Shown: positions 6,112-34,067, counted from the first letter of the whole stretch. The stretch is 63,556 nucleotides of DNA, filler included, from Collodictyon triciliatum (GCA_043381765.1; 11 parts of 11 records of this genome joined end to end with filler, not necessarily neighbours in it); one strand, 5' to 3'. Translations and numbers: made by a program. The notes: a model not told the origin generated them from the sequence alone.

Positions 6112-6220
6112 CCAACAAAANNNNNNNNNNNNNNNNNNNNNNNNNNNNNNNNNNNNNNNNNNNNTTAATTAATTAANNNNNNNNNNNNNNNNNNNNNNNN
6201 NNNNNNNNNNNNNNNNNNNN

Positions 6221-7531: not shown

Positions 7532-9463
7532 GTGGCTGCTTTTTATATGGGATAGAAGCGGGGCAAGTTGAAAGAAAATAAAGCAATCTTGGTGGGCATT
7601 ATCATTGGCGTGCTGGGTTGAGAAATCATCCCCAAGATGCTCTGACAAGGTTGAGGCAGGATGATGAAAAATACATAATGGTTATTTAGATTGTGGTTTT
7701 TAAGATTCTCGTCACTTTTTTTGATTTTTTTGCAGTTACAGTTGGGTTGCTGTTGATAGGTCAATTCATTGAGAAAACAGAGATATGTCACGCGTGGTGC
7801 TCGGCAAAGCAATCCACTTATCGTTCAGATTTCATAAGGAAATATCTTACCTCTTCAATCTTCTGTCATCTGTCAAACCGGACGCCTATTTGTGTGTTCC
7901 TCAAGCTAGACATGCGTCTTTTTATATGTCCTGTTAAATCCCAGCCGGCAATGGCGAAGCACATTCGAAACGCATTAAGTGAAGTCCCTTTGGCGAGGCG
8001 GCAGACAGGATGACATGTGGGCCCTATTGGGTCAAAGGTATCCTAGAAGCCTCTGGAAGCTTTCGCCTTCAGTGCAACCTTTACTGGAAAAACCACCTGT
8101 ATTTTATATTCCTCCATAATCTAATCATCCTTTATGTCACACTGGGAATGTCTTTTCAACTTTGGTTTTTTTTTAGATTATAAATTGAGTTGCCACATGA
8201 AAGTAACCAAAGACACTCCATCACTCTGTGCTTCTTTTACTTGAGTATCAAGGCAGCCATTGTTACTTATCCGAAATGATACTCCAAAGCGAAGGCAACA
8301 CAATAATCAGCGCCCACCAAAGATAGTCCGTTTACCCTCCCCAGCCCGTTGCACCGAGAACCAAGGAGCAAGAGCAAATGCCACAAGTCGAATCCGAGCT
8401 TGAAACTCCACATACCAATGACAGTCCGAGCAAGCAGGAGCGTATATTTCTAAAACCACATACAAGTTTGGCCATATTCCGGTTAGGCGAAGTCCACTGC
8501 CAAATACGCATGGTTACAAAACCAGGAGACGGTCAAGCGCCACTTCCGTGAATACCAGACAAACAACGATATATCGCGTTCTGTCTGAGTCGCCCAGCAA
8601 GAAACGTAAGGAAAGTGACCCGTTGTCCCCTCAAAAGACTCAATCCTGTGGAATGAAATAGGATGTACGGCTTGTCCGAGATAGACGGTTGAAAGGTCTT
8701 GTTGGAATCGATTCTTGAATTAACAGCCTTGNNNNNNNNNNNNNNNNNNNNNNNNNNNNNNNNNNNNNNNNNNNNNNNNNNNNNNNNNNNNNNNNNNNNN
8801 NNNNNNNNNNNNNNNNNNNNNNNNNNNNNNNNNNNNNNNNNNNNNNNNNNNNNNNNNNNNNNNNNNNNNNNNNNNNNNNNNNNNNNNNNNNNNNNNNNNN
8901 NNNNNNNNNNNNNNNNNNNNNNNNNNNNNNNNNNNNNNNNNNNNNNNNNNNNNNNNNNNNNNNNNNNNNNNNNNNNNNNNNNNNNNNNNNNNNNNNNNNN
9001 NNNNNNNNNNNNNNNNNNNNNNNNNNNNNNNNNNNNNNNNNNNNNNNNNNNNNNNNNNNNNNNNNNNNNNNNNNNNNNNNNNNNNNNNNNNNNNNNNNNN
9101 NNNNNNNNNNNNNNNNNNNNNNNNNNNNNNNNNNNNNNNNNGACAAATCAGGCATCATTACGCAAATTGCCTCCCAATTTTGGATATTGGTATATCATAC
9201 CAAATCTGTCGAAATAGTCATTTCTGGAATAAATGCACGTCAATTTTCCCTTTTTGCGCTAAACCCTCTACTACAAACCTGCCAAAAACCACAACTCTGT
9301 TTTGTGACTTTGATCGAGCACAGGCTCGGTTGAGGCAATTACCAACATCAAACACATACATACAACACGCTACACCTCCCTGTCTTTTCGTATCTTTGGA
9401 AATAGTTATTATTTTATTGTATCTGTTGAACTCTGTTTTACTCTTGCCACCACTTCTCAGCCG

Positions 9464-10639: not shown

Positions 10640-12080
10640 TCAGGCGATGTAAGTACGAATAAAATCAAAGCAGCGCTCCAAGTGCTCCTCGCTTTCAGGA
10701 ATGTGCCTATGGAATAAATGCCAAGTATGAAAGACGTTGGAGTAAACGTCCACTTGGATTTTAGCGTCTTTTGCCTCGCCTAGTTTCAAACTCTGAAAGA
10801 CCAGACTGTCATCCAGAAATACTTCATCATCAGCAACAACCACCAAGACCGGAGAGCAGGAATTATCCCACGGCCCGTACATGGCATTGACCGACGGGTC
10901 TCTCGTGTCATAGCGTTGGGCTGCTTTCTTAAAGACTCTCTTTACGGTTTCCCCGTTTAATGCACAATCCAAGTCCGCGTTGCGCTCATAAGAGTCTCCT
11001 TGCGCCGCCAAATCTATTCCAGGCGACAACAAAACGCAACAAACAGGCATCTGAACACCAATATGCGCACTTGCATCGTTTCCCGGAATACCTTGTCTTT
11101 GTTGATGTAAAATGCGTTGGATGGAAAGCAAACACAGGCCCCCACCGGCGCTGTCTCCAATAAGGACGACCTTAGCATGTTGTTGAGATGCGTATTGGAG
11201 AGCCTCAACAACATCAGTCACAGACTCGGCAATGGATGATTCTGGTGCCTGTGGAAAAGATGAGCAGCTGGAAATTATGATACAGCTTAAAGCTTCATAC
11301 ATATGCGTATTATATCTATAAATAATCATTTGTTTGATAATTCTATGTGTCTGCGGGGAGAGACCCTACCAATCTGTATTGAGGAAAATAGACAGGGCAA
11401 CTGAGACGTCGCGATAATGTCTGTGCGAATCCATGGTAAGCAGAGAAATCTCCCGATACAAACCCCCCTCCATGAACATACACAACGCAGTACTCCGAAA
11501 TGCTTTTTGCCTCATCTAGAGACAAGGTATTCTTTGCAGCACAATATAGGCGAATCAAAGGGCAATGTCCGAGAGAGATGAGGGAGATTTCCTCCGTCTC
11601 ATTCTCGCCCCCACTATCGGGAGGACAAACCAGTGCTAAGAAAGGTTGCCGTATTTGCTCCACTTGGTCGCTTTGATGGTCTCTGTATCGACGAAAGAAG
11701 CGCCGCCATCTGCTCATAGGCCCAGATACGGGTGATGAACGCGAAGTCGTGTGGATTTGCAAAGAAGAGGGGAGGCAGACTCGGTCGAGATATATCTCAC
11801 TTTGGTCGATACTCGGTTGGCTTGTCTGATGCTCCACGGAAGGTGGCTTTGGTGTGAAAAACGACTCATTCTTCGAGTGAAAGGATTGGATAATCCTGTG
11901 ATATACATCCTCTGTGAGAAGTGAGGATTCTGACGAATGTCGGGGTGGCGATAAGAGGCAGTCTCGGACTTGCAGCTGCATGTGATTCAGACTGACGAAT
12001 GCTGTGGTGAAGAAGCGACGCAGTAGAGATGGCCGTAATGAGCCGTCCCATTGTATCGAATCCACACCCGAGTGTCTCAT
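10640..12080 (-). CDS. Alpha/beta hydrolase, hormone-sensitive-lipase family esterase
   Basis: VYVHGGGF oxyanion motif, QYRL/intron/APE, GDSAGG nucleophile, DEVFLDD acid and FHTW histidine. Intron about 11250-11371; the 5' end is uncertain. Confidence 0.9.
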
Positions 12081-12440
12081 CAGGGTGCTGCCCTCGAGGC
12101 GACGTGTTCTGGTATGAGAATGAAAAGAAGCTGTAGCGGGAATGTTTTTTATGTTTTTTATGTTTTTTTGTGTTTTTTTATGTTTTTTTATGTTTTTTTA
12201 TGTTTTTTATGTTTTTTTATGTTTTTTTATGTTTTTTTATGTTTTTATGTTTTTTTATGTTTTTTTATGTTTTTTATGTTTTTTTATGTTTTTTTATGTT
12301 TTTTTATGTTTTTTTATGTTTTTTTATGTTTTTTTATGTTNNNNNNNNNNNNNNNNNNNNNNNNNNNNNNNNNNNNNNNNNNNNTTAATTAATTAANNNN
12401 NNNNNNNNNNNNNNNNNNNNNNNNNNNNNNNNNNNNNNNN

Positions 12441-18460
<6,020 letters not shown>

Positions 18461-18660
18461 GTTTCTTTAAATCATATTTAAATTCATGTATGCTTTTTTT
18501 TTTTTTTTTTTTAATTTTTCTTTTCAATTTTGTGCAAAATTTTGGGTCTTGAACCTTTTNNNNNNNNNNNNNNNNNNNNNNNNNNNNNNNNNNNNNNNNN
18601 NNNTTAATTAATTAANNNNNNNNNNNNNNNNNNNNNNNNNNNNNNNNNNNNNNNNNNNNA

Positions 18661-21600
18661 ACCCATGCTGAAACTCATACTGAAACTCAACCTGAAACCC
18701 ATGCTGAAACCCATGCTGAAACCCACGCTGAAACTCATGCTGAGGCTCACGCTGAAACTCATACTGAAACCCACGCTGAAACTCAACCCGAAACTCATGC
18801 TGAAACTCATACTGAAGAGAAGGTTCAAGCTCAACCTGAAACCCATGCTGAAACTCATGCTGAAACTCATGCTGAAGAAAAGGTTCAAGCCCACGCTGAA
18901 ACCCATGCCGAAACTCAACCCGAAACCCATGCTGAAGAGAAGGTTGAAACCCACGCTGAAACCCATGCTGAAACTCAACCCGAAACCCATAGTGAAGAGA
19001 AGGTTGAAACTCATGCTGAAACCCATGCTGAAACCCATACTGAAACTCATACTGAAACCCATGCTGAAGAAAAGGTTGAAGCCCATGCTGAAACCCATGC
19101 CGAAGAAAAGGTTGAAACTCATGCTGAAACCCATGCCGAAGAAAAGGTTGAAACTCATGCTGAAACCCATGCTGAAACCCATGCTGAAACCCACGCTGAA
19201 ACCCATGCTGAAACCCATGCTGAAACTCAACCTGAAACCCATGCTGAAACCCACGCTGAAACTCACGCTGAAACTCATACTGAAACCCACGCTGAGACCC
19301 GTGCTGAAACCCATACTGAAACTCATACTGAAACCCATGCTGAAGAAAAGGTTGAAACTCATGCTGAAACCCATGCTGAAGAGAAGGTTGAAACCCATGC
19401 TGAAACCCACGCTGAAACCCACGCTGAAACTCAACCTGAAACCCACGCTGAAACCCACGCTGAAACTCATGCTGAAACCCATGCTGAAACTCATACTGAA
19501 ACTCAACCTGAAACCCATGCTGAAACCCATGCTGAAACCCACGCTGAAACTCATGCTGAGGCTCACGCTGAAACCCACGCTGAGACCCGTGCTGAAACCC
19601 ATACTGAAACTCATACTGAAACCCATGCTGAAGTAAAGGCTGAGACTCATGCTGGAACCCACGCTGAAGAAAAGGTTGAAACCCATGCTGAGACCCATGC
19701 TGAAACCCACGCTGAAACCCACGCTGAGACCCACGCTGAAACCCATGCTGAAACCCATGCTGAAACCCACGCTGAAACTCATGCTGAAACTCATACTGAA
19801 ACTCATACTGAAACTCATACTGAAACTCAACCTGAAACCCATGCTGAAACCCACGCTGAAACTCAACCTGAAACCCACGCTGAAACCCACGCTGAAACTC
19901 ATGCTGAAACTCATACTGAAACTCATACTGAAACTCAACCTGAAACCCATGCTGAAACCCACGCTGAAACTCATACTGAAACTCATACTGAAACTCAACC
20001 TGAAACCCATGCTGAAACCCACGCTGAAACTCATGCTGAGGCTCACGCTGAAATCCACGCTGAGACCCGTGCTGAAACCCATACTGAAACCCATGCTGAA
20101 GAAAAGGTTGAAACTCATGCTGAAACCCATGCTGAAGAGAAGGTTGAAACCCATGCTGAAACCCATGCTGAAACCCACGCTGAAACTCATGCTGAAACTC
20201 ATACTGAAACTCAACCTGAAACCCATGCTGAAACCCACGCTGAAACTCATGCTGAAGCTCATGCTGAAGAGAAGGTTGAGACCCATGCTGAAACCCATGT
20301 TGAGACCCATACTGAAACCCATGCTGAAGAAAAGGTTGAAACTCATGCTGAATCTCATGCTGAAACCCACGCTGAAACCCACGCTGAAACCCATGCTGAA
20401 ACTCAACCTGAAACCCACGCTGAAACCCACGCTGAAACCCACGCTGAAACTCATACTGAAACCCACGCTGAGACTCAACCTGAAACCCATGCTGAAACCC
20501 ACGCTGAAACCCATGCTGAAACTCATGCTGAAGAGAAGGTTGAAACTCATACTGAAACCCATGCTGAAACTCAACCTGAAACCCACGCTGAAACTCATGC
20601 TGAAACTCATGCTGAAACCCATGCTGAAACCCATGCTGAAACCCACGCTGAAGCTCAACCTGAGACCCATGCTGAAACACGCGGTGAAGCCCATGCTGAA
20701 ACCCGCGGTGAAGCCCACGCTGAAACCCATGCTGAAACCCATGCTGAAACTCATGCTGAAGAGAAGGTTGAAACTCATGCTGAGACCCATGCTGAAACCC
20801 ATGCTGAAACTCACGCTGAAAACCATGCTGAAACTCATGCTGAAACTCATGCTGAAACTCACGCTGAAACTCATACTGAAACTCACGCTGAAGCTCATAC
20901 TGAAGAAAAGGTTGAAACTCAACCTGAGACCCATGCTGAAGCTCATACTGAAGCCCATGCTGAAACCCAACCTGAGACTCATGCTGAAACCCATGCTGAA
21001 GAAAAGGTTGAGAGCCATGCTGAAACTCATGCTGAAGAAAAGGTTGAAATTCATGCTGAAATTCGTACTGAAACCCACGCTGAAGAAAAGGTTGAGACCC
21101 ATGTTGAAACCCACGCTGAAACCCACGCTGAAACTCATGCTGAAACTCACGCTGAAACTCACGCTGAAACTCACGCTGAAACTCATGCTGAGACCCAGGC
21201 TGAAACCCACGCTGAGACCCAGGCTGAAACCCATGCTGAGACCCATACTGAGGCTCACGCTGAAACTCATGCTGAAACCCACGCTGAGACCCACGCTGAG
21301 ACCCAGGCTGAAACCCATGCTGAAACCCATGCTGAAACCCATACTGAGGCCCATACTGAAACCCATACTGAAACTCATGCTGAAACCCATGCTGAAACCC
21401 ATGCTGAAACTCATGCTGAAGAGAAGGTTGAAACCCATGCTGAAGAGAAGGTTGAAACCCATGCTGAAACCCACGCTGAGACCCATACTGAGGCTCACGC
21501 TGAAGAAAAGGCTGAAACTCAACCCGAAACCCATAGTGAAGAGAAGGTTCAAGCTCAACCTGAAACCCATGCTGAAACTCATACTGAAACTCATGCTGAA

Positions 21601-23910
21601 ACTCATGCTGAAACTCATGCTGAAACTCATAGTGAAGAAAAGGTTGAGACTCACGCTGAAACCCATGCTGAAGAAAAGGTTGAGAGCCATGCTGAAACTC
21701 ATGCTGAAGAAAAGGTTGAAACTCATGCTGAAATTCATACTGAAACCCACGCTGAAGAAAAGGTTGAGACCCATACTGAAACCCACGCTGAAACTCACGC
21801 TGAAACTCATGCTGAAACTCACGCTGAAACTCATGCTGAAACTCATGCTGAGACCCAGGCTGAAACCCACGCTGAGACCCAGGCTGAAACCCATTCTGAG
21901 ACCCATACTGAGGCTCACGCTGAAACCCATACTGAAACCCACGCTGAGACCCACGCTGAGACCCAGGCTGAAACCCATGCTGAGACCCATGCTGAAGAGA
22001 AGGTTGAAGCTCAACGCGAAACCCACGCTGAAAAGGTTGAGACCCATACTGAAACCCACGCTGAGACCCATGCTGAAGAGAAGGTTGAAACCCATGCTGA
22101 AACCCACGCTGAGACCCATACTGAGGCTCACGCTGAAACCCATGCTGAAACTCATGCTGAAGAGAAGGTTGAAACCCATGCCGAGACCCACGCTGAAGGG
22201 AAGGTGGAAACCCATGCTGAGACCCACACTGAAGCTCATACTGAAGAGAAGGTTGAAACACATGCTGAGACTCATGCTGAAACCTATGCAGAAGCTCAAC
22301 CTGAAACCCATGCTGAAACTCACGCTGAAGCTCAACCTGAAACCCATGGTGAAACCCACACTGAAGCTCATACTGAAACCCATGCTGAAGAGAAGGTTGA
22401 GACCCACGCTGAAGAGAAGGCTGAAACCCACGCTGAAACCCACGCTGAAACCCACGCTGAGACCCATGCTGAAGAGAAGGTTGAAACCCATGCTGAAACC
22501 CATGCTGAAACTCACGCTGAGACCCATACTGAGGCTCACGCTGAAGAAAAGGCTGAAACCCATGGTGAAACCCACACTGAAGCTCATGCTGAAACCCACG
22601 CTGAAGAAAAGGTTGAGACCCATGCTGAAACTCACGCTGAAACCCACGCTGAAGAAAAGGTTGAGACCCACGCTGAAACTCACGCTGAAACCCATGCTGA
22701 AACTCACGCTGAAGAAAAGGTTGAAACTCAACCTGAAACTCAACCTGAAACCCATGCTGAAACCCATGCTGAAGAGAAGGTTGAAACTCATGCTGAAGCT
22801 CATACTGAAGAAAAGGTTGATACCCAACCTGAAACTCAACCTGAAACCCATGCTGAAGAGAAGGTTGAAACTCATGCTGAAACCCACGCTGAGACCCATG
22901 CTGAAACCCACGCTGAAGAAAAGGTTGAAACTCATGCTGAAACCCATGCTGAAACCCATGCTGAAACCCATGCTGAAACCCATGCTGAAGAGAAGGTTGA
23001 AACTCATGCTGAGGCTCATGCTGAAACCCACGCTGAAACTCAACCTGAAACTCAACCTGAAACTCATCCTGAAACCCATACTGAAACCCATGCTGAAGAG
23101 AAGGTTGAGAGCCATGCTGGAACCCATGCTGAGACCCACGCTGAAGCTCATGCTGAAACCCATGCTGAAACTCATGCTGAAGAGAAGGTTGAAACTCATA
23201 CTGAAACCCATGCTGAAACCCACGCTGAAGAGAAGGTTGAAGCTCATGCTGGAACCCATGCTGAGACCCACGCTGAAGCTCATGCTGAAACCCATGCTGA
23301 AACTCATGCTGAAACTCAACCTAAAACCCACGCTGAAACCCACGCTGAAACTCATACTGAAACTCACGCTGAAACTCATGCTGAAGCCCATGCTGAAGCC
23401 CATGCTGAAGCCCATGCTGAGACTCACGCTGAAACTCATGCTGAAGCCCATGCTGAAACCCATGCTGAAAGCCATACTGAAGAGAAGGTTGAAACCCATG
23501 CTGAAACTCATGCTGAAGAGAGGGTTGAAACTCATGCTGAAACCCATGCTGAAACCCACGCTGAGACCCAACCTGATGAAAAGGTTGAGAGCCATGCTGA
23601 AACCCATGTTGAGACCCACACTGAAGAGAAGGTTGAAACCCATGCTGAAACTCACGCTGAAACCCACGCTGAAACTCATACTGAAACCCATGCTGAAACC
23701 CATGCTGAAACTCATGTTGAGGCTCATGCTGAAACCCAACCTGAAATCCAACCTGAAACTCATGCTGAGGCTCATGCTGAAACCCATGCTGAAACTCATG
23801 TTGAGGCTCATGCTGAAACCCAACCTGAAATCCAACCTGAAACCCATACTGAAGCTCATGCTGAAACCCAACCTGAAACCCATGCTGAAACTCATGCCGA
23901 AGGAAAGGCT
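18661..23910 (+). repeat. Coding minisatellite, 12-bp unit (GAAACCCATGCT and variants), roughly 435 units
   Basis: Units encode ETHA, ETHT, ETQP, EAHA and EEKV. Variation is mostly at third codon positions, and the one indel seen (near 22030) is 3 nt. Confidence 0.97.
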
Positions 23911-24769: not shown

Positions 24770-24875
24770 TCTCCTNNNNNNNNNNNNNNNNNNNNNNNNN
24801 NNNNNNNNNNNNNNNNNNNTTAATTAATTAANNNNNNNNNNNNNNNNNNNNNNNNNNNNNNNNNNNNNNNNNNNN

Positions 24876-27325
24876 GAGACTGAGACTGAGACTGAGACTG
24901 AGACTGAGACTGAGACTGAGACTGAGACTGAGACTGAGACTGAGACTGAGACTGAGACTGAGACTGAGACTGAGGTTGAGATTGAGATATAGGCTGTTCT
25001 AGTGTGACAGACTTCATCGCAGATTCTGACTCGGATATCGTCATTATGACATTTTTGTCGAGAATTTCCTCTACTAAAATTCTTTCGGTATGCAAATGTT
25101 TTTTCTTCAATTCAATTTTTGTGTATCTTAATTTCGCGGGTAATTGAATATTTGATTCATTCTGCTCGCCAACAGGCAAGTATGGAACTCTGCCTGCGAA
25201 ACTCCCACTCACAAAATCAAAAGAATTACTGGAGTAATTTTTCTTTCTGTCATTTTTTGTGCTGGCCTTACTTCGGTCCCGTATTTTGTCAGCTCCTGGA
25301 AAGATCTCTTCATGACTCGAACATATGTGATTACATCTTTTTACCCCAAATCCTATGTATCCTTTTACACCAAAAACGAGTGTAAGTTTCATGTCTACTA
25401 TAATGTATAAGGTATAAATACAAAACCTACCCCGCTGTGCAGGCGAACAGTTCGCTTTGGGTAAATCACAGTACGGTTCTGTGTGATGTTTTTGGCGTAT
25501 TCCAAAGGATGAGACATGTGACTCTATTTTTTCATAACTTTGCTGGTGTTTGTGCCCAATAACTTGCAGGTGATATGGTGAATTGTGTGTCACTTTTTTT
25601 AATAATGTGAACAGTTTCGTACTTTTGAGGGATTGAATAAAAAATATAGCCTTGGTTTCTACTTTCTGCTGAGGAGTTCGAGCAGTGGATGTTTTTTCTT
25701 TATATGCTATAATTAGTTAAGTCAGTGTTTGCATTCCCCTGATGAATTACTATTTTTATTGAGTTATTAGTTTACAAAATGGCTAACTGCAGTATTCCTT
25801 CGGGAATGTTGATAACATTGGATATCTATCAGCAAGGGAAGTAGGTAAGCAGTTACCTTTTTTGACCCATTTTTCAATTACTATATTATAATCGGGAAGT
25901 TGAACTTTAATTTCGGCATTGTACTGTCGGCAAATTTGAAATATCTATTCGTTGGTATACATTAAAGTTTCATCCTGTTTTGAGGCTAAAAAATGATAAA
26001 AATTATGATATGTTGTGCAAAAAAAAAAAGATCATGGAGTCCACACCTGCTGGGGCCATATTCTCCTTTAAAGATATATTTAAAACAATTAAAATTAGAA
26101 GATATATGTGTATAAATGCAAAATACAAGATATGAAGCATGGGTAAAATAAAACCTAATCCAAAATTTATAAGCGATGTATCCCTTGAGATAAAATTTTA
26201 GTCTGCTTGGTATGCAAGTGTGCGAAACTCTAAAGAATTCTGATTTTGCGTGTGTCACATGATAATCTAAGGAATTAAATTGCTTTTATTGACTTAAATT
26301 GAAATGTAAGAAGATCGAAGCTGATTGTGTTGGTGATCGGATAGATGACAATAGTAAAAGAAAAGGTATTGTTTCCTGACCTTTATGACTCTGAATATGC
26401 TGCTTCTTGGGGTTGTTCATATATTTAGAATATATATTTTGTAAAAATTGAGAATTCAAAAAATATTTTAAAAAAGCTTAAAACTAAACGTTATCATCAT
26501 GTTATTTTAGCATACCAAATCGTATGAATCAACTACCTCTTTTACCCAGTGAGGATTTCGTTCTTCTCTTATTCGAATATTTGAATCAAGTTTGTTCGTG
26601 GAAGCCCTGGAAATATTTCTATATTGTGCATCTTTCTTAAGCAACTTTTTTAGGTCGTAAGTATTTCTATCTGGTGGATAAACTATCTTTGCTTTTTCTA
26701 AAGTCATAATAATTGTTTCTATGGTACTATTTGATGTTCCTTTTTGAGTGTGCCCCGTCTTCGGTAGATTCTCATCAGAATAGCAGAAAAATGATTTTAT
26801 GTCAGGCGGTGAAATCATATCTTTTCGTGATTTTTTTGATATGTCTGCCCCATCTAATTTCTTCTGACATCGATTTGTGTATGTAAGTGTAAAAACCACA
26901 GGTTGACTGCGCCCAACACTCTCATCGCTTAACCTCGTATTTTTTGCCGTACTTGCATTGGATAGTAAACGGTATTCATTCTCATGTGCATGTTTTAGAT
27001 TAAAGCCGTCAATATAACTTGCTTTTCCAGTTGATAGTAATCGAGAATAGTCAGGTAGACATTTTCTGTTCCCAGGGGGTGATATTTTAACCAGGAAGTA
27101 GCCACGCATCAAGCTGTCGCCGCTACTTTTGGAGTTGCAGTTTGCTTGGGTGGGCTGAGTCTTTCGATCAGCGCGTACGTTTAGGAACATGCCCCAACAA
27201 TTCTTGAGACATATTTTCACACTTCCTCCTTGAGGATCGAGGCTCTCTTTTTCGAAAAGGAAGGCACAAAGGAACACAATAACAAGCAGGCGAATTCTCC
27301 CTGTCCAAGGACGTCCTGCAGCCAT
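24876..27325 (-). CDS. Hypothetical protein(s) with an N-terminal hydrophobic segment; exon structure unresolved
   Basis: A 272-codon ORF at 26507-27325 begins MAAGRPWTGRIRLLVIVFLCAFLF. An open frame at 24876-25593 ends in a (QS)n repeat at the scaffold edge. No family recognised. Confidence 0.35.
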
Positions 27326-27599
27326 CTTTTCCAGAAGCGAAGTATCTGCCGTATTTTGCAGGGTCAGCAGATCATCGACAATGACAAAAAAAAAAAAAAA
27401 GGAATATCAGGCCGCTTCTCTTTGCCAAGTGCCGTACTGTGCTGCCTCCTGGTGACGCATTCACACACGATGTACGATCACATCGGTTGAGCTTCTTGGT
27501 TATTTGTTGTTGTTGGGACTTGAAATGGGTTCTTCAGATCTGGATCAATGTAACCTTTTCTAATTGTGGATTTGATGCAACCACTTTGTTTTTTATTTT

Positions 27600-28230
27600 G
27601 TTCAACTAGAAGGGGTATACCAATCCTTCGATTGGTAAACCTGGTGCGTTTTTTTTTTTTTTATTGCTTCTTTCGATTTGTGCAAGATGCTGGAGGTGTT
27701 GGCTTTGGTTCGCTAGTCATCGTTTACATGGACGCTACTTGGTGGCTGGTTGGCGGAGAAGTAGTCGTTAATCAGGATTTGCATCCTGCGGTTTGGCCTG
27801 TGGCCTGGGACTTGTGCTTGCGTGAGAGACAGGGCGAGTTTGAATCTCATCCATCTATCTTCCACATGTCTCTTCTCGAAGGGCCTGATTAGTAGAGAAC
27901 GTGCAGGTGGCAAAGAAAGTTGTTGAGGAAAGAGATTCGTATGATGGCATCCAGCCTATTGTCAGGAGTGGGTGGCTGACTGTTGAATCTTACTTTGCGT
28001 GAGTATATGCGCGCTATCCACATAGTCCATAGCAAATGACCTCGCGTCACTGCCCAGAATGTTTTTGCATCTGGACGCAGTTGTTGCAGAGGCCCGAATA
28101 TCGCCTGGATTGGGCCAACAGCCGCAGCCGGTAAACCTGGTGCGCTAGTACCCAAGGTCTCACCACTTTTTTTTCGCAAAGGTCGTGTAGTGGTGAAGGA
28201 TGCCAGGAAAGACCCAACAGCCATTTTTTT
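27600..28230 (-). ncRNA. Candidate Fanzor omegaRNA scaffold (about 28230-28130 plus 27633-27600), interrupted by a LINE insertion
   Basis: Lies immediately 3' of the Fanzor ORF. Stem TCACCACT/AGTGGTGA (28160-28167 with 28189-28196); hairpin TACCAATC-GAAG-GATTGGTA (27618-27637); possible GGGTA/TACCC and CTAG/CTAG pairings across the insertion point. Confidence 0.55.
27649..28129 (-). mobile_element. 5'-truncated non-LTR retrotransposon (L1/Tx1-like) fragment, 481 bp
   Basis: Perfect 15-bp direct repeat GGTAAACCTGGTGCG at 27634-27648 and 28130-28144. A minus-strand A14 tail (27649-27662) containing AATAAA abuts one copy. The peptide AIFG...FWAVTRGHLLWTMWIAR...F resembles the ORF2 C-terminal WxxWxxR motif. 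Confidence 0.85.
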
Positions 28231-28249
28231 AGGGTTAGGTGTGTCCATT

Positions 28250-30116
28250 TTTTGAAGGATAAAAAGAACTTTCTTGAGTATATATTATTAGCGCTGTTAA
28301 AGTCCCTTGTCAAGAATACACTTTGTTTGCCTTCTGAGCGATTGCATTTTTTACACATGAGACATCTATACACTTTTTTGTATTTCCTTTCAGTGTCATA
28401 TATTCCAGTTCGTTTTCGAAGTTGCAGCACATCTTGGAGGTTCTAAATTCATCTACGCTAATTGTTTCAAAACGTTTAGATACTATTTTTCGTAATCCTC
28501 TTCTGATTGTTGGCATAGAACGCTTCATCTGAGATTTTCTGCTCCAGCCTCCACACGCCAGTACAACATCCTTGCCAAATGTCTTTTCGAATCGGTCCAT
28601 TAACAATTGTTCACTTATTTTTGTATTAGCATACTGTCTCCATCTCATCTTTCGAAAAGCCACTTGTTCATAAAATCTGCAAAGTTCTACCTGGTATCTT
28701 GATTTCATAGATACATATTTTCGATTTTTTTTTCATAATCGACCGTGCATGAATTGTGTTTGCTCAGTTGTGTCTCTAAATCGATTAAAGATACTCTTGA
28801 AGCCTCAAATTGCTGATTCTCCTCAAAAGTCATGTGAACAAAATAAATAGCACTTTATAAACTTGTTGCCATGCATATCCCTGAAGCATTGTACTTTTCT
28901 TTCTTTTTCTCGCGCAAGAGTATTTTGTGATTTTTAAGATATTTGCTATCATGTGTTATTTGATGTGTTGTGTAACGTAATTTCTTACCTGCCTCATCCA
29001 CTATGTAAACCAAATTAAACTTGCCTGCGTCCAGCCCAACTATTTTTTTGTCGCTAATAAAGATAACTGCTCTTCGGAAAGTTCATCTATATAGACATAT
29101 TCTTGGTTTTTTTGATTATTTTTTATTTTTGAATTTGAAATACCTTTCTTTTCAAACAATAATGACATCGCCAAGCCGTCTGTTTGTATCATGTATTTAA
29201 AATTGTAGTCTCTTTGATGATAGACCCTCTTCTTCATTTCAAAGAAGTCATCCCATTGGGTCTCATTGAATCCTGATATATTATTCATTAATGATACTTT
29301 TCCAGATAACACTAACCTACCTATCAAACATGACGTATCTAGAGTAATATGACATGGTATATTGTTAGTTCCTATAGGGATTGGCTGAAACAGTTTTGTT
29401 CAAATATCCTCAAAAATGAGATTCATGTAAATCAGACATGGAATGTACTTATTTGGATTGACTTTGACGTCATATTCGATACCATTTACAATATCGCTGG
29501 TTATGATATGGTGCAAATGCGTTATAACCCATTCTTTATATTGTTCCGGTATTTCGAGCTTCTTGAAGATGGCTTTTTTTAAACTAACGTAACTCTGCCT
29601 TTTAATGCCTTCCGTAATATTCTCATCTTTAGGAAATGTTTGATTTATAAAGCGCAGTAATCTCTTTACAAAATGTTCCTTAATGTTCTTATGATAAGCT
29701 GTTAACATTTGCTTCGCCAAGTACGGTAGTACATGAGACAGTCTAACCAACGGAAAGCGTTCTTCTCGAGATAAAAAGAATCGAAAATCATTGAGATAAA
29801 AAGTCATCATGTCATCTCTCGTTTCTGGTTTTTTTAAAACTTGCGGGTCTATCTTGTGAAACTATTCCGACTGTTTTCAAAGCGTACGAAAAAAAAACAT
29901 TTCATCGATTGTTGGGAGGTGTTGTGATTTCAATATGTAACATCTTGCAAACAGATAAGTGTCGGTAACCAAATCATGACACAATAAAACCGTATCGTTG
30001 ATTTCGTCATAGTCATCCGCATTCTTTACAATCGACTTTGGAGATGATTTCACATTTCGATAGTCTGGTTTTACAGACTTATGATTCTCAGACTCAAGAT
30101 GTTTTCTTTTCTTCAT
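28250..30116 (-). pseudogene. Fanzor1: Fanzor1 (eukaryotic TnpB-like RNA-guided RuvC endonuclease), about 590 aa when reconstructed; disrupted
   Basis: Collinear motifs: MKKRKH (NLS-like), YHKNIKEHFVKRLLRFIN, YDVKVNP, KLFQPIP..IPCHITLDT, MIQTDG, RuvC-I IVGLDAGK, LETQLSKHNSCTVDY, FRKMRW, VLACGGWS, PTIRRGLRK, RuvC-II VDEFRTSKMCC, VYRCLMCKKC and RuvC-III TRDFNSANNI. One in-frame TGA (29400-29402) and about five frameshifts. Confidence 0.92.
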
Positions 30117-31627
30117 CTGAAAGTCTTTGGTTTACTTTTTCCTTTTGAAAACTACTGAGTTTTCATTTTTAATAAAACTTGAGTCTATTAGTCAATTTAA
30201 TAATAAAAAACAGCATCAAATCAATTTATGTAAAATTAAGCATCAACCGAGACCCTCAAAATATGCGCATTGTGGCAAACAAACACACAAAGTTTTTTTA
30301 TAAGTGATTTGAGACAAAACGCTGCGAGCCGATTCGGCGAGTTTGAAAGGGCGGCCGTATAGCCATTGTGATTGAAAGTCAACATATCGACCCCAAACAA
30401 CATGATTACCGCCGCAAGAGTGGACAGTATGCTTTTTTGAAATGCATGTTTGGTGGCAGGTTTATGGGGTGGGTTCTGTCTGGGCCAAGGCAACAGCTTG
30501 TTTGAAATTTTTGAATTTCTGAAGTATATTACATAAATGAGAAATAAAATGGAAATTAATTAAAGGAATAGAATGAGATTTTTTTATGTATTAACCTTAT
30601 TATATATTCTAAGTAAACTATTATATCATTCAGGTTGTTTCTTGGCATCATCAAGCTCCTGCTTTTCTGAATCCAGATTTAACTCGATGGTTGTCTGTGC
30701 AATAAACTGCTATATATGGATTCACTTTCGTTGTATAAAAAGTTTGTTGTGCCTTGAAAGGGATAAAACCAAGTTCGTCACAACCTTTGCAATGTAGTTT
30801 ATCCATTTACAGGCCGAATAAGACCGAAGAGAAAGGAAAAGAGAAAAAGAAAAAAAAGAAAATATGTCAAAATGAATGAAAAAGAAAAAGGGGAAGAGAA
30901 AAGAAAAGAAAAGAAAAGAAAAGAAAAGAAAAGAAAAGAAAAGAAAAGAAAAGAAAAGAAAAGAAAAGAAAAGAAAAGAAAAGAAAAGAAANNNNNNNNN
31001 NNNNNNNNNNNNNNNNNNNNNNNNNNNNNNNNNNNTTAATTAATTAANNNNNNNNNNNNNNNNNNNNNNNNNNNNNNNNNNNNNNNNNNNNTGGTTCCGT
31101 ACCACAGGCGCAAGTTTCGACTCAAAGGGGTACGACAAATAGGGAATATGAGCATTCTGCACCGATAATGGTGTGAGATTTGGCTAATCTTTTTGCATGT
31201 GACATGAAGCGTGATGATAATAGCAGGGTTTAGAGACATGAATGTAATTATACTGTATTTTCCATAATTATACTGGGAACAATCTGCAAATCTATGCCTA
31301 TATTCGTCTAAATTCCCAATTCCACGCCGCCGTTCCCAAGCCCGAGGCAATAAGTATCCGTGGGCTACAAAAACCTCCGCGACGTTTATATATTTTGCAT
31401 CAAGGAAACCTTGAGTATTGGGTCTTGGGGCATCATGGAATGCAAGGAAGTGAGACGGGGAAGATATCAACGAAACGAGAGCAACGGATACCCAGAGCAG
31501 CCCGGCCAGAAGGCCATTCCAAGTGCAGAAACAACAACCAAGATACCAACACTCATCCGGGCAAATCTCCTCTTCCCCCCTCATCCTAACCCTTACCCTA
31601 ATCCACAGCAAGCCAACCAGCCACCCC

Positions 31628-32365
31628 ATGAAGTCTGTCATCGCCGCTGTCATCCTGGCCCTTGTCGCCACCGCCGCCGCACTCCCCATCGAGCAAGGTA
31701 GCGCCCTTGACCAATCAGCCAACCGACACATAGACATAGACACATAGATATGGACATAGACACGTAGACACAATCGGCTGCTGACTATCGACCCATCCCG
31801 CCCCAGGAGAACTCGCAGACTACACCATCGGCTTCAGCTCCAACACAGACCCGCGCGGCACCGCCGTCGCATACGTCAACGCGGCCACCCGCACCCTGGA
31901 CATCACCATGTACAAGTACGAGGACACCACCATCCACAACGCCGTCGTATCCGCCATCCGCCGCGGAGTCCGCGTAAGCATACCTCTTTCGTACCCGCGC
32001 CAAGCAGTACCGCATATTCTGCACCGTACCTGCAAACATACGAGGCAGCACCTCACAGCCCGGCAAACATGCAGGTCCGCGCCATCGTCGACAACACCGA
32101 GGCTGGAGGAAAGGACTCGCTTGCCAAGGCCCTGGCCTCTGCCGGCGCAACTGTCCGCACCTGGTCCGGCGTCGGCAGCTTCGACAAGCTGCACTCAAAG
32201 TACTCCATCTATGACGGCGCAAAGGTCCTGACCGGCACCAACAACTGGACAAACTCTGGTGCAACCACAAACATGGAGGTGGTCATCACTTTCCAGGCTG
32301 CCACGGCCGTCGCCACCTTCCAGGGCAACTTCGAGACCCTCTTCTCCCAGGGGAAGGCCATCTAA
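31628..32365 (+). CDS. Secreted single-HKD phospholipase-D-family endonuclease (Nuc/Zucchini-like), 175 aa
   Basis: Exons 31628-31697, 31807-31973 and 32075-32365 splice in frame with GT-AG. Signal peptide MKSVIAAVILALVATAAA; LDITMYKY, AIRRGVRVRAIVD, LHSKYSIYD (HxKxxxxD), LTGTNNWT and TNME. Confidence 0.9.
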
Positions 32366-33176
32366 GCGCGCTCTGCTCGCCCGAGTCCTCCGCTCTGTGT
32401 CTCTTTCTGTCTTTCCCTCCACGTCTGCCTGTCAGTCTTTCTCCCCTTGCTGTGGTTTCATCCACCGGCGGCATTCGCCGATCGAAGCAGGGTTTGTCCT
32501 GCCGCCTTCAAACCTGGCCTCGCCTGACGCTCTGTGACTTGGATGCAGGGCAGAGTCGATAAATATATAGACTTCCTTTTTCTTCCATCGCGTCAGACTG
32601 TCACATGACGGGATTTGCATATGAACACACGACATAGCTCCAACTTAAATCTTTGCGATGTGATTGTCTCCAAAGCTAGTTCCTCCACCTGTCATCCATC
32701 TCGAGAGTATCACGAAGCGGGGTGCTCGCCTACCCAAACCCCTTTATGGGCCATGTCCCCGTCCAGGAGTCTTCCGTGGGACTGCAGGACACGAGGAACG
32801 CCAGCCACTTCCACCCTCAGCCATGTTGCCGCCTCCCCGCTGATTCATTCCCTTTGTGAATTTCCTCAAGGCAACCCAGTCCCAACTCGTTATTGATCCC
32901 TGTCAGCTTTTGTTTTTCCTTCTTTCTGGTCACTCACAATCAACCTGCAAGTCGATCCATTTTCTTTTCCTTCCCCCGCCCCAACCTGTCTATTCCATGG
33001 CCACGAAGGCCCTGCACTTTGCGGACCGAAAAGAGCCAAGAGAACGCAGCATACCACGAGAACTGCGGCATTTTTTTCCTTTTCCTTGGCCTTGTGAGGC
33101 AGACAGGAAACTAACGAGCCTGTTGAATCCAAACGGGCAGCCGGGCGGCGCAATCAGGTGCAGGGACAAAGACGGG

Positions 33177-34067
33177 ATGGGCAAAGGAAGCAGCTGGATG
33201 AACACACTGAGCGTCATTGCCTCGTCGCTCTGCCTGGTGGACTGTGTTGTTCTGCCGGGGTTGCTGGCTGCCTTGAACATGCTGAACATGGTCTCCTTGG
33301 TCAACGACGAGTGGCTCCACCAGCTTCACCACTTTTCCCACCACACCGCAATCTACTACATAGCCCCGATCTCCCTCTTTGCTTTGGTCACAGGCTTCTT
33401 GTAAGGCTTTGTTCTCGTCTTTGATTTCACGCAGATTTTCCTCTTCCTTTTCCTGCAGTCTATGACTCTTCTTTTTTTTTTAATTGTTTTTTTTTTATTT
33501 GGAGTGTTTGCTTTTTTCTCTCCTTGTGAGTTGGTAGTGGCTTTTGAAACTTGGAATGAAAACAAAAGAACGCTAATATTAATATTAATATTAATAATAA
33601 TGATAGCCATAATAATAAATTAATCAATAGATAATAAAATAACCAAAATAAATAATGATGATAAAACAAAAAATAAATAAATAAATAGCCACCACAAGCA
33701 AGTCCTCCTTGTGTTGATCGGACTTGCAGCCTTGGGCACAATGGTTGCTGCATCTTCTCTTGCCCATGACGATGAAACCTTGGAACACCGTCTGTCCCTC
33801 GGCGGTTCGCTTGTTCTGTTTCTGGTGCAGATGCGTGTCCGCTCGCTCGAGTCTGGACATGCCCATCACGCAGGCTGCAGTCACGGCCATAATCACGGCC
33901 ATAATCACGGCCACAATCACAGCAATGATAACACTATCCCAAAGGAATCCCATCCCATCCAAGAAACTGCACCGATATCTGATGATGCTGCGGAGGTGGA
34001 GGAACCCAAAGGCCAGCAGGAGCAGCTCCGGCAAAGAAGAGCGGCTGGCCGACCAAAGAAGGACTAA
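33177..34067 (+). CDS. MerC-family-like 4-TM metal-binding membrane protein with a His-rich C-terminal tail, about 200 aa
   Basis: Exons 33177-33400 and 33689-34067 splice in frame. SVIASSLCLVDCVVLP (CxxxC pair then LP), WLHQLHHFSHH, ALVTGFFHHK, EHRLSLGG and tail GHAHHAGCSHGHNHGHNHGHNH. The start could lie further upstream. Confidence 0.75.

What the first reader, a model, noticed from the sequence alone, without database searches (positions are those of the whole stretch)
27634..28144. A LINE retrotransposed into the Fanzor guide-RNA region, with a perfect 15-bp TSD
Seen: minus-strand CGCACCAGGTTTACC, then 481 bp ending in AATAAA/A14, then CGCACCAGGTTTACC again; the insert encodes a WxxWxxR ORF2-like C-terminus. 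Known: TSD, poly(A) and 5' truncation are the signature of target-primed reverse transcription, and some Tx1-clade LINEs target specific RNA genes or other transposons. The target is GC-rich, unlike the TT/AAAA preference of mammalian L1, and it overlaps the 5' arm of the candidate hairpin. Inference: this may be a LINE that targets Fanzor omegaRNA loci, a parasite that disarms the guide. It could also be a chance insertion. Identical TSD copies suggest it is recent.
Basis: partly seen in the sequence, partly recalled or inferred. Interest (0 to 1): 0.85.

Follow-up and report, generated by a model that had tools for sequence, protein, structure and literature searches.

The report
Truncated LINE inside broken Fanzor gene
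A 481-base tail fragment of an L1-like jumping gene landed, with a clean 15-base target duplication, in the last codons of an already broken-looking Fanzor nuclease gene; the little evidence obtainable speaks against this LINE aiming at Fanzor, so it looks like an ordinary nested insertion.

Summary
On the minus strand, CGCACCAGGTTTACC flanks a 481-bp insert that ends in AATAAA and 14 A's. The insert is the last ~139 codons, a 50-nt 3'UTR and the tail of an L1-like LINE. Close family proteins carry zf-RVT. Distant full-length relatives are APE+RT+zf-RVT and match human L1 ORF2p. The host gene is a Fanzor1 homologue, broken by an in-frame TGA and at least 3 frame changes.

One environmental contig shows the empty site, and 7 contigs in 3 runs continue the LINE past the truncation point. 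The site lies in the last ~10-13 codons of the reconstructed ORF, where an omegaRNA scaffold would be expected to start. It is about 190-250 nt from the element's apparent 3' end, not at the guide. The hairpin next to it stays intact.

Targeting is not supported. The one readable independent LINE 3' junction has an unrelated flank. Summed contig depth of the LINE is about 8-12 times that of the Fanzor flank.

Verdict: an ordinary, non-targeted TPRT insertion nested in a multicopy Fanzor element. The sample of junctions is very thin. Interest is low.

The parts
28130..28144 (-). Upstream (5') copy of the 15-bp target-site duplication, CGCACCAGGTTTACC. Its last C (28130) could equally be the LINE's own base, giving 1 nt of microhomology at the 5' junction.
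   Evidence: (family D7); contigs of longer LINE copies match as far as 28130.
27649..28129 (-). The 481-bp 5'-truncated fragment of an L1-like (APE-type, zf-RVT-bearing) LINE, in the same orientation as the Fanzor gene.
   Evidence: P0001: 22 of 22 identical, zf-RVT. (P0024, P0025 and P0027 aligned over the whole coding part). (7 contigs in X1, X3 and X4 continue 5' past 28130 with LINE sequence).
27713..28129 (-). Remnant of the last ~139 codons of ORF2, the region after the CCHC/zf-RVT domain. It is broken by an in-frame TAA at 27889-27891 and a frame change between 27859 and 27832. The family's own stop is at 27713-27715.
27663..27712 (-). The 50-nt 3'UTR of the LINE, ending in AATAAA, which runs into the tail.
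   Evidence: stop at 27713-27715.
27649..27662 (-). Uninterrupted poly(A) tail of 14 A.
   Evidence: I9.
27634..27648 (-). Downstream (3') copy of the 15-bp target-site duplication. The poly(A)/15-mer boundary marks the inferred first (bottom-strand) nick.
   Evidence: The position of the nick is an inference from the TPRT model.
27614..27641 (-). A 28-nt hairpin (3 + 8 bp stem, GAAG loop). Its 5' arm overlaps the last 8 bases of the downstream 15-mer, and it is intact in the present locus.
   Evidence: -15.1 kcal/mol, z -4.2, 0 of 200 shuffles. One search shows the same hairpin in the computed empty site.
28281..30131 (-). Body of a Fanzor1-type gene, apparently a pseudogene. The RuvC-I (GLDAG), RuvC-II (VDEFRTS, E six residues before the zinc-finger Cys) and RuvC-III (TRDFNSANNI) motifs are present. 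The frame is interrupted by an in-frame TGA (29400-29402) and by frame changes near 29050, in 28733-28897 and in 28376-28406.
   Evidence: Parasitella Fanzor1, E 5.1e-10; Guillardia Fanzor1, E 4.1e-06. One search gave only weak Pfam hits.
28145..28280 (-). C-terminal tail of the Fanzor frame between RuvC-III and the insertion site. Two of 2 environmental contigs lack 2 nt at 28279, so the original frame of this tail is uncertain.
   Evidence: (table 4).
27401..27633 (-). The rest of the Fanzor 3' end. The last 8-11 codons of the reconstructed frame have their stop at 27602-27604 or 27606-27608. About 200 nt of non-coding sequence follow, where an omegaRNA scaffold would be expected. Similarity to other copies ends somewhere in 27400-27463, next to a T15 run (27386-27400).
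   Evidence: frames. (record 1 covers 27463-27613 with 4 of 151 letters different; depth falls to 0.93 in 27359-27509). (fold z -1.8 to -2.6). (no Rfam match). The omegaRNA role is inferred, not shown.

Best explanation
This is an ordinary nested transposon insertion. An L1-like non-LTR retrotransposon (APE endonuclease + RT + C-terminal CCHC/zf-RVT) integrated by target-primed reverse transcription into one copy of a multicopy Fanzor1-bearing element.

Steps inferred from the anatomy:
1. The bottom strand was nicked at the boundary now marked by poly(A)/CGCACC.
2. The RNA was reverse-transcribed from its poly(A) tail.
3. Synthesis or joining stopped after 481 nt, giving the 5' truncation, possibly with 1 nt of microhomology.
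4. The top strand was cut 15 bp downstream, giving the 15-bp duplication.

The site falls in the last ~10-13 codons of the Fanzor frame, in sense orientation. The insert therefore separates the gene from its 3' non-coding tail, the presumed omegaRNA scaffold, and places an AATAAA signal between them. The Fanzor copy is itself broken by a stop and several frameshifts, so nothing functional need have been lost.

The choice of this site was not directed at Fanzor. The LINE family is dispersed at other sites, and a repeated element is simply a large target.
For: **Shown**
- The exact 15-bp duplication, A14 tail and 481-bp insert.
- LINE identity:
  - P0001, with zf-RVT at E 7.1e-09, is 22 of 22 identical to the insert.
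  - Family members P0024, P0025 and P0027 align over the whole coding part. In a hand count, 77 of 90 positions match P0024.
  - The distant full-length relatives P0010, P0019 and P0022 carry Exo_endo_phos + RVT_1 + zf-RVT.
  - P0010 matches human L1 ORF2p at E 3.4e-57.
- 5' truncation: 2 + 2 + 3 contigs in runs X1, X3 and X4 match up to 28130 and then read on. Translated by hand, their continuation gives GEILRLTLK, the residues that precede AAAVGPIQ in P0001.
- Empty site: 1 contig in X1 joins 27648 to the sequence that follows the upstream 15-mer. Of its 22 bridging letters, 19 are identical to 28145-28166 (hand comparison). It is therefore a Fanzor copy with a single 15-mer and no LINE (tables 5 and 5c).
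- Fanzor1 identity and breakage.

**Against targeting**
- The X1 contig with a loose end at 27670 carries the LINE 3' end plus a 6-T run, i.e. a short poly(A). It is followed by a flank unrelated to the 15-mer right from the junction (table 7).
- Summed contig depth in X1 is 63.6-95.4 over the LINE, against 8.08 in the bin holding the 3' flank and 10-17 over the Fanzor body (table 2).

**Background**
- LINEs near Fanzor genes have been noted before (review PMC13565253, passages seen).
Against: - The bases at the inferred nick (bottom strand ...GTGCG/CTAGT...) are not the T-rich site known for human L1 (5'-TTTT/AA-3'; PMC1950540, passages seen). The endonuclease preference of this family is therefore unknown.
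- The case against targeting rests on one clear junction. Two further contigs diverge inside the 3'UTR at 27677 and are uninterpretable.
- The depth sums come with the tool's own warning that they are not copy numbers.
- X1 holds relatives rather than the window's own organism. Unique flank 26604-27358 has depth 0 there.
- 34 further loose ends were not shown.
- No assembly was available, and all collection scans for more copies found nothing usable.
- The frame breaks in the Fanzor gene lie partly at homopolymer runs and could be assembly errors.
Confidence: 0.85

Rival explanations
1. The LINE family is site-specific, like Tx1L in Tx1D. Its endonuclease recognises the G+C-rich sequence or hairpin at the 3' end of Fanzor elements, so it parasitises them and disrupts the omegaRNA.
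For: - The nick site is G+C-rich rather than TT/AAAA-like.
- The site abuts a strong hairpin.
- The LINE has the CCHC/zf-RVT C-terminus shared by L1 and Tx1 lineages.
- Site-specific APE-type LINEs that live inside a DNA transposon exist. Tx1L in Tx1D is one (PMC1950540, passages seen).
- An unchecked scan note reports another LINE nested in a Fanzor remnant with a 15-bp TSD, in a different genome (e1-558436).
Against: - One independent LINE 3' junction has a different flank from the first base on.
- LINE depth is about 8-12 times that of the Fanzor 3' flank in X1. A strictly targeted element could not exceed its target (the depth caveat applies).
- The only other Fanzor copy seen across this site is empty.
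- No second filled site was seen anywhere.
Confidence: 0.04
2. Endonuclease-independent insertion. The LINE cDNA was primed at a pre-existing nick or break in the Fanzor 3' end, for example at a structure-prone hairpin, rather than at a site chosen by its own endonuclease.
For: - The junction has no T-run to pair with the poly(A).
- A stable hairpin lies at the site.
Against: - A clean 15-bp duplication together with an intact 3' end and a 14-A tail is the signature of the staggered two-nick, endonuclease-dependent pathway.
- Endonuclease-independent L1 insertions typically lack TSDs and are often 3'-truncated. This is recalled knowledge and was not checked in a paper here.
- Endonuclease preferences differ widely between LINE families (PMC1950540).
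Confidence: 0.07
3. Artefact. The repeat and insert are an assembly chimera, or a chance repeat, in a draft assembly of short contigs.
For: - The window is a string of ~6.1-kb contigs of a fragmented assembly.
- The gene shows homopolymer-associated frame breaks.
Against: - The 15-mer pair is statistically isolated.
- The insert ends exactly in a poly(A) tail and begins exactly where longer LINE copies read on.
- An independent contig shows the precise empty site.
- A chimera would not produce a duplication of the target.
Confidence: 0.01

Closest known systems
5'-truncated L1-type LINE insertions made by target-primed reverse transcription (human L1 ORF2p as the solved reference: 8uw3, 8sxt, 8c8j)
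   Same: - Flanking TSD of 15 bp, within the usual L1 range.
- Poly(A) tail preceded by AATAAA.
- Severe 5' truncation.
- Relatives with APE + RT + C-terminal Cys-rich domain. P0010 matches L1 ORF2p at E 3.4e-57 over residues 3-871.
   Different: - The nick site is G+C-rich, not 5'-TTTT/AA-3' (PMC1950540).
- The family is uncharacterised and known here only from unnamed environmental proteins.
- Clade placement (L1 versus Tx1) was not tested.
Tx1L, the site-specific APE-type LINE that inserts into the DNA transposon Tx1D of Xenopus (PMC1950540, passages seen)
   Same: A LINE sitting inside a DNA-transposon-type element, with the same general domain set.
   Different: - Tx1L is found at one defined sequence in its target.
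- Here the one other readable junction is at an unrelated sequence, and the LINE outnumbers the target flank.
- Membership is not supported.
Fanzor1 RNA-guided nucleases (Spizellomyces, Parasitella and Guillardia Fanzor1: 8gkh, 9cf0, 9cer)
   Same: - Sequence similarity of the window's own pieces (E 5.1e-10 and 4.1e-06).
- Sequence similarity of its 44%-identical relative P0002 (E about 1e-16 to all three).
- RuvC D-E-D motifs, with the catalytic E six residues before the zinc finger (criterion from PMC13565253).
   Different: - The frame is broken by a stop and at least 3 frame changes.
- It is now split from its 3' tail by the LINE.
- No omegaRNA has been demonstrated, and no terminal repeats or partner transposase were found on the 6.1-kb contig.
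Earlier scan note e1-558436: a LINE nested in a Fanzor-element remnant of Cyanidioschyzon merolae with a 15-bp TSD
   Same: The same kind of nest, a LINE with a perfect 15-bp TSD inside a decayed Fanzor repeat. It was judged ordinary by that follow-up.
   Different: - A different genome and an unrelated locus.
- There the LINE was 5 kb long and lay in the leader, not at the 3' end.
- I did not test that note.

Membership tests
Non-LTR retrotransposon (LINE) insertion by TPRT | Target-site duplication flanking the insert | tested here: met
   Perfect 15-mer at 28144-28130 and 27648-27634. None of 100 shuffles gave 2 matches. It is the only complex direct repeat of 15 nt or more at 50-1000 bp spacing outside the satellite contig.
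Non-LTR retrotransposon (LINE) insertion by TPRT | 3' poly(A) tail abutting the downstream TSD copy | tested here: met
   A14 at 27662-27649, preceded by AATAAA.
Non-LTR retrotransposon (LINE) insertion by TPRT | Insert is the 3' part of a longer element (5' truncation) | tested here: met
   Seven contigs in 3 runs read on 5' past 28130. Family proteins extend up to about 290 residues further N-terminal (P0024). Distant full-length relatives are 1226-1275 aa.
Non-LTR retrotransposon (LINE) insertion by TPRT | Existence of the uninterrupted (empty) target | tested here: met
   One contig of X1 bridges 27648 to the sequence after 28144 with a single 15-mer. The shorter side is only 22 letters (tables 5 and 5c).
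L1-like (APE-type) LINE with C-terminal CCHC | ORF2 with apurinic-type endonuclease, reverse transcriptase and zf-RVT/CCHC domain | tested here: inconclusive
   The insert holds only the tail after the zinc knuckle. Close family members P0001, P0004, P0005 and P0006 carry zf-RVT. Exo_endo_phos + RVT_1 + zf-RVT are seen only in distant relatives (P0010, P0019, P0022; 24-33% identity to P0001).
Tx1-clade / site-specific LINE | Independent copies inserted at the same target sequence | tested here: not met
   Of 1 readable independent 3' junction, 0 lie at the 15-mer. LINE depth is 63.6-95.4 against 8.08 for the flank in X1. The sample is very small.
Tx1-clade / site-specific LINE | Phylogenetic placement of RT/APE within the Tx1 clade | not tested
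   No reference set of LINE clades was available in the tools, and no full-length copy of this family was recovered.
Fanzor1 (eukaryotic TnpB homologue) | Sequence similarity to experimentally characterised Fanzor1 proteins | tested here: met
   Window piece 28310-28732 matches Parasitella Fanzor1 at E 5.1e-10. Piece 29403-29861 matches Guillardia Fanzor1 at E 4.1e-06. P0002 matches three Fanzor1 structures at E 6e-17 to 1e-15.
Fanzor1 (eukaryotic TnpB homologue) | [quoted passage not shown] | tested here: met
   GLDAG, VDEFRTSKMCC and TRDFNSANNI read directly from the translation and aligned to P0002. The criterion comes from PMC13565253.
Fanzor1 (eukaryotic TnpB homologue) | Intact open reading frame | tested here: not met
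   In-frame TGA at 29400-29402 and at least 3 frame changes relative to P0002. Assembly error at homopolymers cannot be excluded.
Fanzor1 (eukaryotic TnpB homologue) | 3' omegaRNA: a conserved scaffold overlapping the gene's end, followed by a 14-15 nt guide that differs between copies | tested here: inconclusive
   The computed empty-site 3' region folds only mildly better than shuffles (z -1.8 to -2.6). One strong hairpin is present. There was no Rfam match. One environmental contig of the 3' tail is 147 of 151 identical, while body contigs differ at 18-23 of 151-216 letters. No set of copies was available to show a variable guide.

The most novel reading that the evidence does not exclude
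The LINE's endonuclease, or its priming step, may prefer the structured, G+C-rich 3' ends of Fanzor elements, namely the hairpin that abuts the nick. LINE and Fanzor elements would then be recurrently nested, with the LINE cutting the nuclease gene off from its guide-RNA scaffold. That would be a retrotransposon parasitising an RNA-guided DNA transposon. The non-T-rich nick site, the hairpin at the site and an unchecked scan note of a similar nest in a red alga are compatible with this reading. The one independent junction and the depth ratio argue against it.
Probability: 0.04. Interest if true: 0.7.

Novelty: new member of a known kind. Interest (0 to 1): 0.15.

Why it matters
As it stands it matters little. 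It is a textbook nested transposon insertion, useful mainly for annotation. It marks this Fanzor copy as dead, gives a clean example of the TSD length and an unusual G+C-rich nick site for an uncharacterised L1-like family, and shows that the Fanzor element is multicopy with at least one empty-site copy. Only if many independent copies proved to sit at the same Fanzor position would it become interesting, as a first case of a retrotransposon aimed at an RNA-guided nuclease element.

Tried and rejected
- **Other copies in the window:** none of the LINE or of the Fanzor gene, by blastn or tblastn.
- **JGI metagenome contigs:**
  - With P0001, 56 pattern matches and none confirmed.
  - With the 20-mer of the hairpin, 0 matches.
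- **Prokaryote genome contigs:**
  - With the 79-aa tail, 210 pattern matches and none confirmed.
  - With a 20-mer of the LINE 3'UTR, 1 locus (L006). It shares only the 20-mer and has 70% G+C, so it is a chance match.
- **Viral contigs:**
  - Five loci (L001-L005) came back with the 79-aa tail. None matched P0010, P0005, P0004 or P0002 by tblastn, or the insert by blastn, so they are false positives.
  - Both 20-mers gave 0 matches.
- **Alignment A1** was too divergent to be used as a query.
- **Protein search with the chimeric 131-aa frame** across the 5' junction: no hit among 13 candidates.
- **Pfam:** nothing on the LINE piece. Only sub-threshold RuvC_1 and OrfB_IS605 on one Fanzor piece.
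- **RNA genes on the contig:** no Rfam family at E <= 1 and no tRNA, so the target is not a known small-RNA gene.
- **Terminal inverted repeats** for the Fanzor element: none found on the contig.
- **Sequencing runs:** only 5 environmental runs, each with 5-7% of the words. X2 added nothing at the site. The contigs with loose ends at 27677 diverge inside the 3'UTR and could not be read as junctions.
- **Earlier scan notes:** none for this genome or for this sequence.
- **LRKKSGETLG / LRETAGEILR resemblance:** tblastn made this alignment between the Fanzor tail and the LINE upstream of the truncation point. I considered it and rejected it as chance. The shared DNA word is 7 nt, and the distances to the junction differ (35 versus 29 nt, hand comparison).
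- **Supplementary files of papers** were not consulted. Those of the Fanzor surveys may list LINE neighbours.

Full report
**Setting.** The window is not one stretch of chromosome. It is a string of contigs of about 6.1 kb in descending length, separated by N44/12-base/N44 spacers. The finding lies on the contig 24876-30991, so only 6.1 kb of true context exists. No whole genome is held for the window. Other contigs carry ORFs with eukaryote-type and general domains (GCIP, PLD-like, Abhydrolase_3).

**Observation.**
- On the minus strand, CGCACCAGGTTTACC stands at 28144-28130 and again at 27648-27634. These are the only two matches in the window, even with 2 mismatches allowed. The expected count is 0.04, and 0 of 100 shuffles gave two.
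- My own count of exact direct repeats of 15 nt or more at 50-1000 bp spacing, with a simple complexity filter, found two outside the satellite contig. One is this pair and the other is a T-rich 22-mer.
- Between the copies lie 481 bp that end in AATAAA running into 14 A's.

**What the insert is.**
- The insert's frame begins AAAVGPIQAIFGPLQQLRPDAK. It is 22 of 22 identical to an unnamed 281-aa environmental protein, P0001, which carries Pfam zf-RVT (E 7.1e-09) just upstream of that point.
- P0001's 90% cluster has 6 members. Three of them (P0024, P0025, P0027) read through the whole tail.
  - Against P0024 the insert matches 77 of 90 aligned positions (hand count).
  - It has a TAA (27889-27891) where they have Tyr.
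  - It changes frame between 27859 and 27832.
  - It then ends at the family's own stop (27713-27715).
- The insert is therefore the last ~139 codons of ORF2, a 50-nt 3'UTR and the tail.
- An exhaustive profile-free search with P0001 found only 21 proteins at E <= 0.001.
  - Three are full length, 1226-1275 aa, and carry Exo_endo_phos + RVT_1 + zf-RVT.
  - The hits with many short stretches are WD40 proteins and irrelevant.
  - P0010 matches human LINE-1 ORF2p at E 3.4e-57 over residues 3-871, well ahead of R2 proteins at about 1e-23.
- The family is thus an APE-type, L1-like LINE. Whether it falls in the L1 or the Tx1 clade was not tested.

**What it landed in.**
- Upstream on the same strand (30131-28281) is a gene in at least five frame pieces.
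- Its pieces match solved Fanzor1 proteins directly: Parasitella at E 5.1e-10 and Guillardia at E 4.1e-06.
- Its only database relative in the 'longer' search is P0002 (391 aa, 44% identity over 73% of the 140-aa piece). P0002 matches three Fanzor1 structures at about 1e-16.
- The RuvC motifs GLDAG, VDEFRTS and TRDFNSANNI are present. The glutamate sits six residues before the zinc-finger cysteines, a Fanzor trait according to the review PMC13565253 (passages seen).
- Relative to P0002 the frame is broken by an in-frame TGA (29400-29402) and by frame changes near 29050, within 28733-28897 and within 28376-28406.
- Two of 2 environmental contigs lack 2 nt at 28279, directly after RuvC-III.
- The copy looks like a pseudogene. 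Some breaks lie at homopolymer runs, so assembly error cannot be excluded. Pfam alone gave only sub-threshold hits.

**Where exactly the site lies.**
- I computed the pre-insertion sequence inside a script. Both candidate frames of the C-terminal tail run through the 15-mer and stop 8-11 codons later, at 27602-27604 or 27606-27608. The LINE therefore hit the last ~10-13 codons of the gene.
- Contigs of other copies still match at 27463-27613 (4 of 151 letters different). Depth falls to 0.93 in 27359-27509, next to a T15 run. The element's 3' end thus lies about 190-250 nt downstream of the site.
- In TnpB and Fanzor systems the guide RNA is transcribed from the 3' part of the gene to the element's end and extends 14-15 nt into the flank (PMC13565253). 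The site is therefore at most at the 5' start of a presumed scaffold and far from the guide.
- No omegaRNA is demonstrated.
  - The reconstructed 3' region folds only mildly better than shuffles (z -1.8 to -2.6).
  - Rfam and ARAGORN found nothing on the contig.
- The one strong hairpin (27641-27614; -15.1 kcal/mol, z -4.2, 0 of 200 shuffles) overlaps the last 8 bases of the 15-mer. Because the 15-mer is duplicated, the hairpin survives intact downstream of the insert.

**Evidence from public runs.** Five environmental runs held 5-7% of the sampled words, and four were laid.
- Runs X2-X4 hold 151-nt pieces of the unique flank (26252-27186), identical or nearly so (0-6 other letters). They therefore contain the organism or a near twin at low depth. 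X1 holds relatives: of 103 laid contigs, only 1 is 99% or more alike.
- 5' truncation: at 28130, 2 (X1), 2 (X3) and 3 (X4) contigs leave the window sequence and read on. Translated by hand, the continuation gives GEILRLTLK, exactly the residues before AAAVGPIQ in P0001. This proves the 5' truncation, and base 28130 is shared (1 nt of microhomology).
- Empty site: one X1 contig joins 27648 to 28171 with 22 letters between, of which 19 equal 28145-28166. That is a Fanzor copy with one 15-mer and no LINE. It is a single contig with a 22-letter side.
- Independent junction: one X1 contig with a loose end at 27670 shows the LINE 3' end, a run of six T (a short poly(A) on the LINE strand), and then a flank that differs from the 15-mer from the first base.
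- Uninterpretable contigs: two further contigs diverge at 27677, inside the 3'UTR, and cannot be read as junctions. Thirty-four further loose ends were not shown.
- Depth: summed contig depth in X1 is 63.6-95.4 across the LINE, 8.08 in the bin with the 3' flank, and 10-17 over the Fanzor body. The tool warns that such sums are not copy numbers, so I use them only as a direction.

**Targeting.**
It is met once and contradicted never. The only other copy of the Fanzor site seen is empty.
- A LINE confined to this site could not be several-fold more abundant than the site's flank.
- Every attempt to enlarge the sample failed. The verdict against targeting therefore rests on thin data plus the prior that dispersed insertion is the rule for L1-like elements and that a multicopy element is a large passive target.
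- LINEs beside Fanzor genes are already noted in the literature (PMC13565253). An earlier, unchecked scan note describes a similar nest in a red alga and judged it ordinary.
- The nick site is not the 5'-TTTT/AA-3' of human L1 (PMC1950540). That tells us the preference of this family is unknown, not that it is specific.

**Mechanism and consequences (inferred).**
- The steps are a bottom-strand nick at the boundary now marked poly(A)/CGCACC, reverse transcription from the tail, early termination, and a top-strand cut 15 bp downstream inside the hairpin's 5' arm.
- The LINE is in sense orientation and brings an AATAAA. Any transcript from the Fanzor gene would end before the 3' tail, so the insertion would have uncoupled gene and scaffold had the copy still been active.

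**Age.** The perfect TSD and pure A14 speak for little decay since insertion. The nonsense codon and frameshift in the fragment may predate insertion, for instance from a defective source copy, or may follow it. 'Recent' is therefore only weakly supported.

**Verdict.** The insert is a real TPRT insertion of an uncharacterised L1-like LINE in the 3' end of a broken Fanzor1 gene. The 'guide-RNA region' claim is overstated, and the targeting idea is not supported. This is an ordinary nested insertion of low interest. It is a new member of known kinds. A 4% residual reading holds that the family prefers structured Fanzor 3' ends.

Noticed in passing
window 1-63556 (spacers at 6121-6220, 12341-12440, 18560-18659, 24776-24875, 30992-31091 and so on): The window is a concatenation of separate contigs of about 6.1 kb, sorted by falling length and joined by N44 + 12 bases + N44 spacers. 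Neighbouring 'regions' are therefore not physically linked. Two further N runs (8732-9141, 13503-14046) look like scaffold gaps.
   Followed up: partly
window 18660-23901: A whole contig is a 5.2-kb satellite of a 12-bp unit (AACCCATGCTGA and variants). TRF reports it with periods 36-84 at 75% matches. It is open in several frames for more than 1400 codons.
   Followed up: no
window 26507-27406 (-) and 27386-27400: A 299-codon stop-free frame with no Pfam match lies directly downstream of the Fanzor 3' end. It begins at a 15-base homopolymer (T15 on the minus strand), where similarity to other Fanzor copies stops. Runs X2-X4 hold near-identical pieces of this flank, so it looks single-copy.
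   Followed up: partly
window 27463-27613: The one environmental contig covering the Fanzor 3' non-coding tail differs at 4 of 151 letters. Contigs over the gene body differ at 18-23 of 151-216. This could mean a conserved RNA or transposon end, or just a closer copy (table 8).
   Followed up: no
window 28145-28179 versus LINE sequence upstream of the truncation point: tblastn aligned the Fanzor tail LRKKSGETLG with the LINE's LRETAGEILR in the same frame. The DNA shares a 7-nt word, GGTGAGA, at different distances from the junction. This is probably chance.
   Followed up: partly
window 24876-24987 and 30893-30991: The contig ends in microsatellites, (GAGACT)n and (GAAAA)n, which probably stopped the assembler.
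   Followed up: no
window 10640-12197 (-), 31760-32365 (+), 32844-33404 (+), 57856-58509 (+): ORFs with Abhydrolase_3, PLD-like, MerC-like and GCIP domains lie on other contigs. The 31-34 kb contig is much more G+C-rich (about 50%) than the rest.
   Followed up: no
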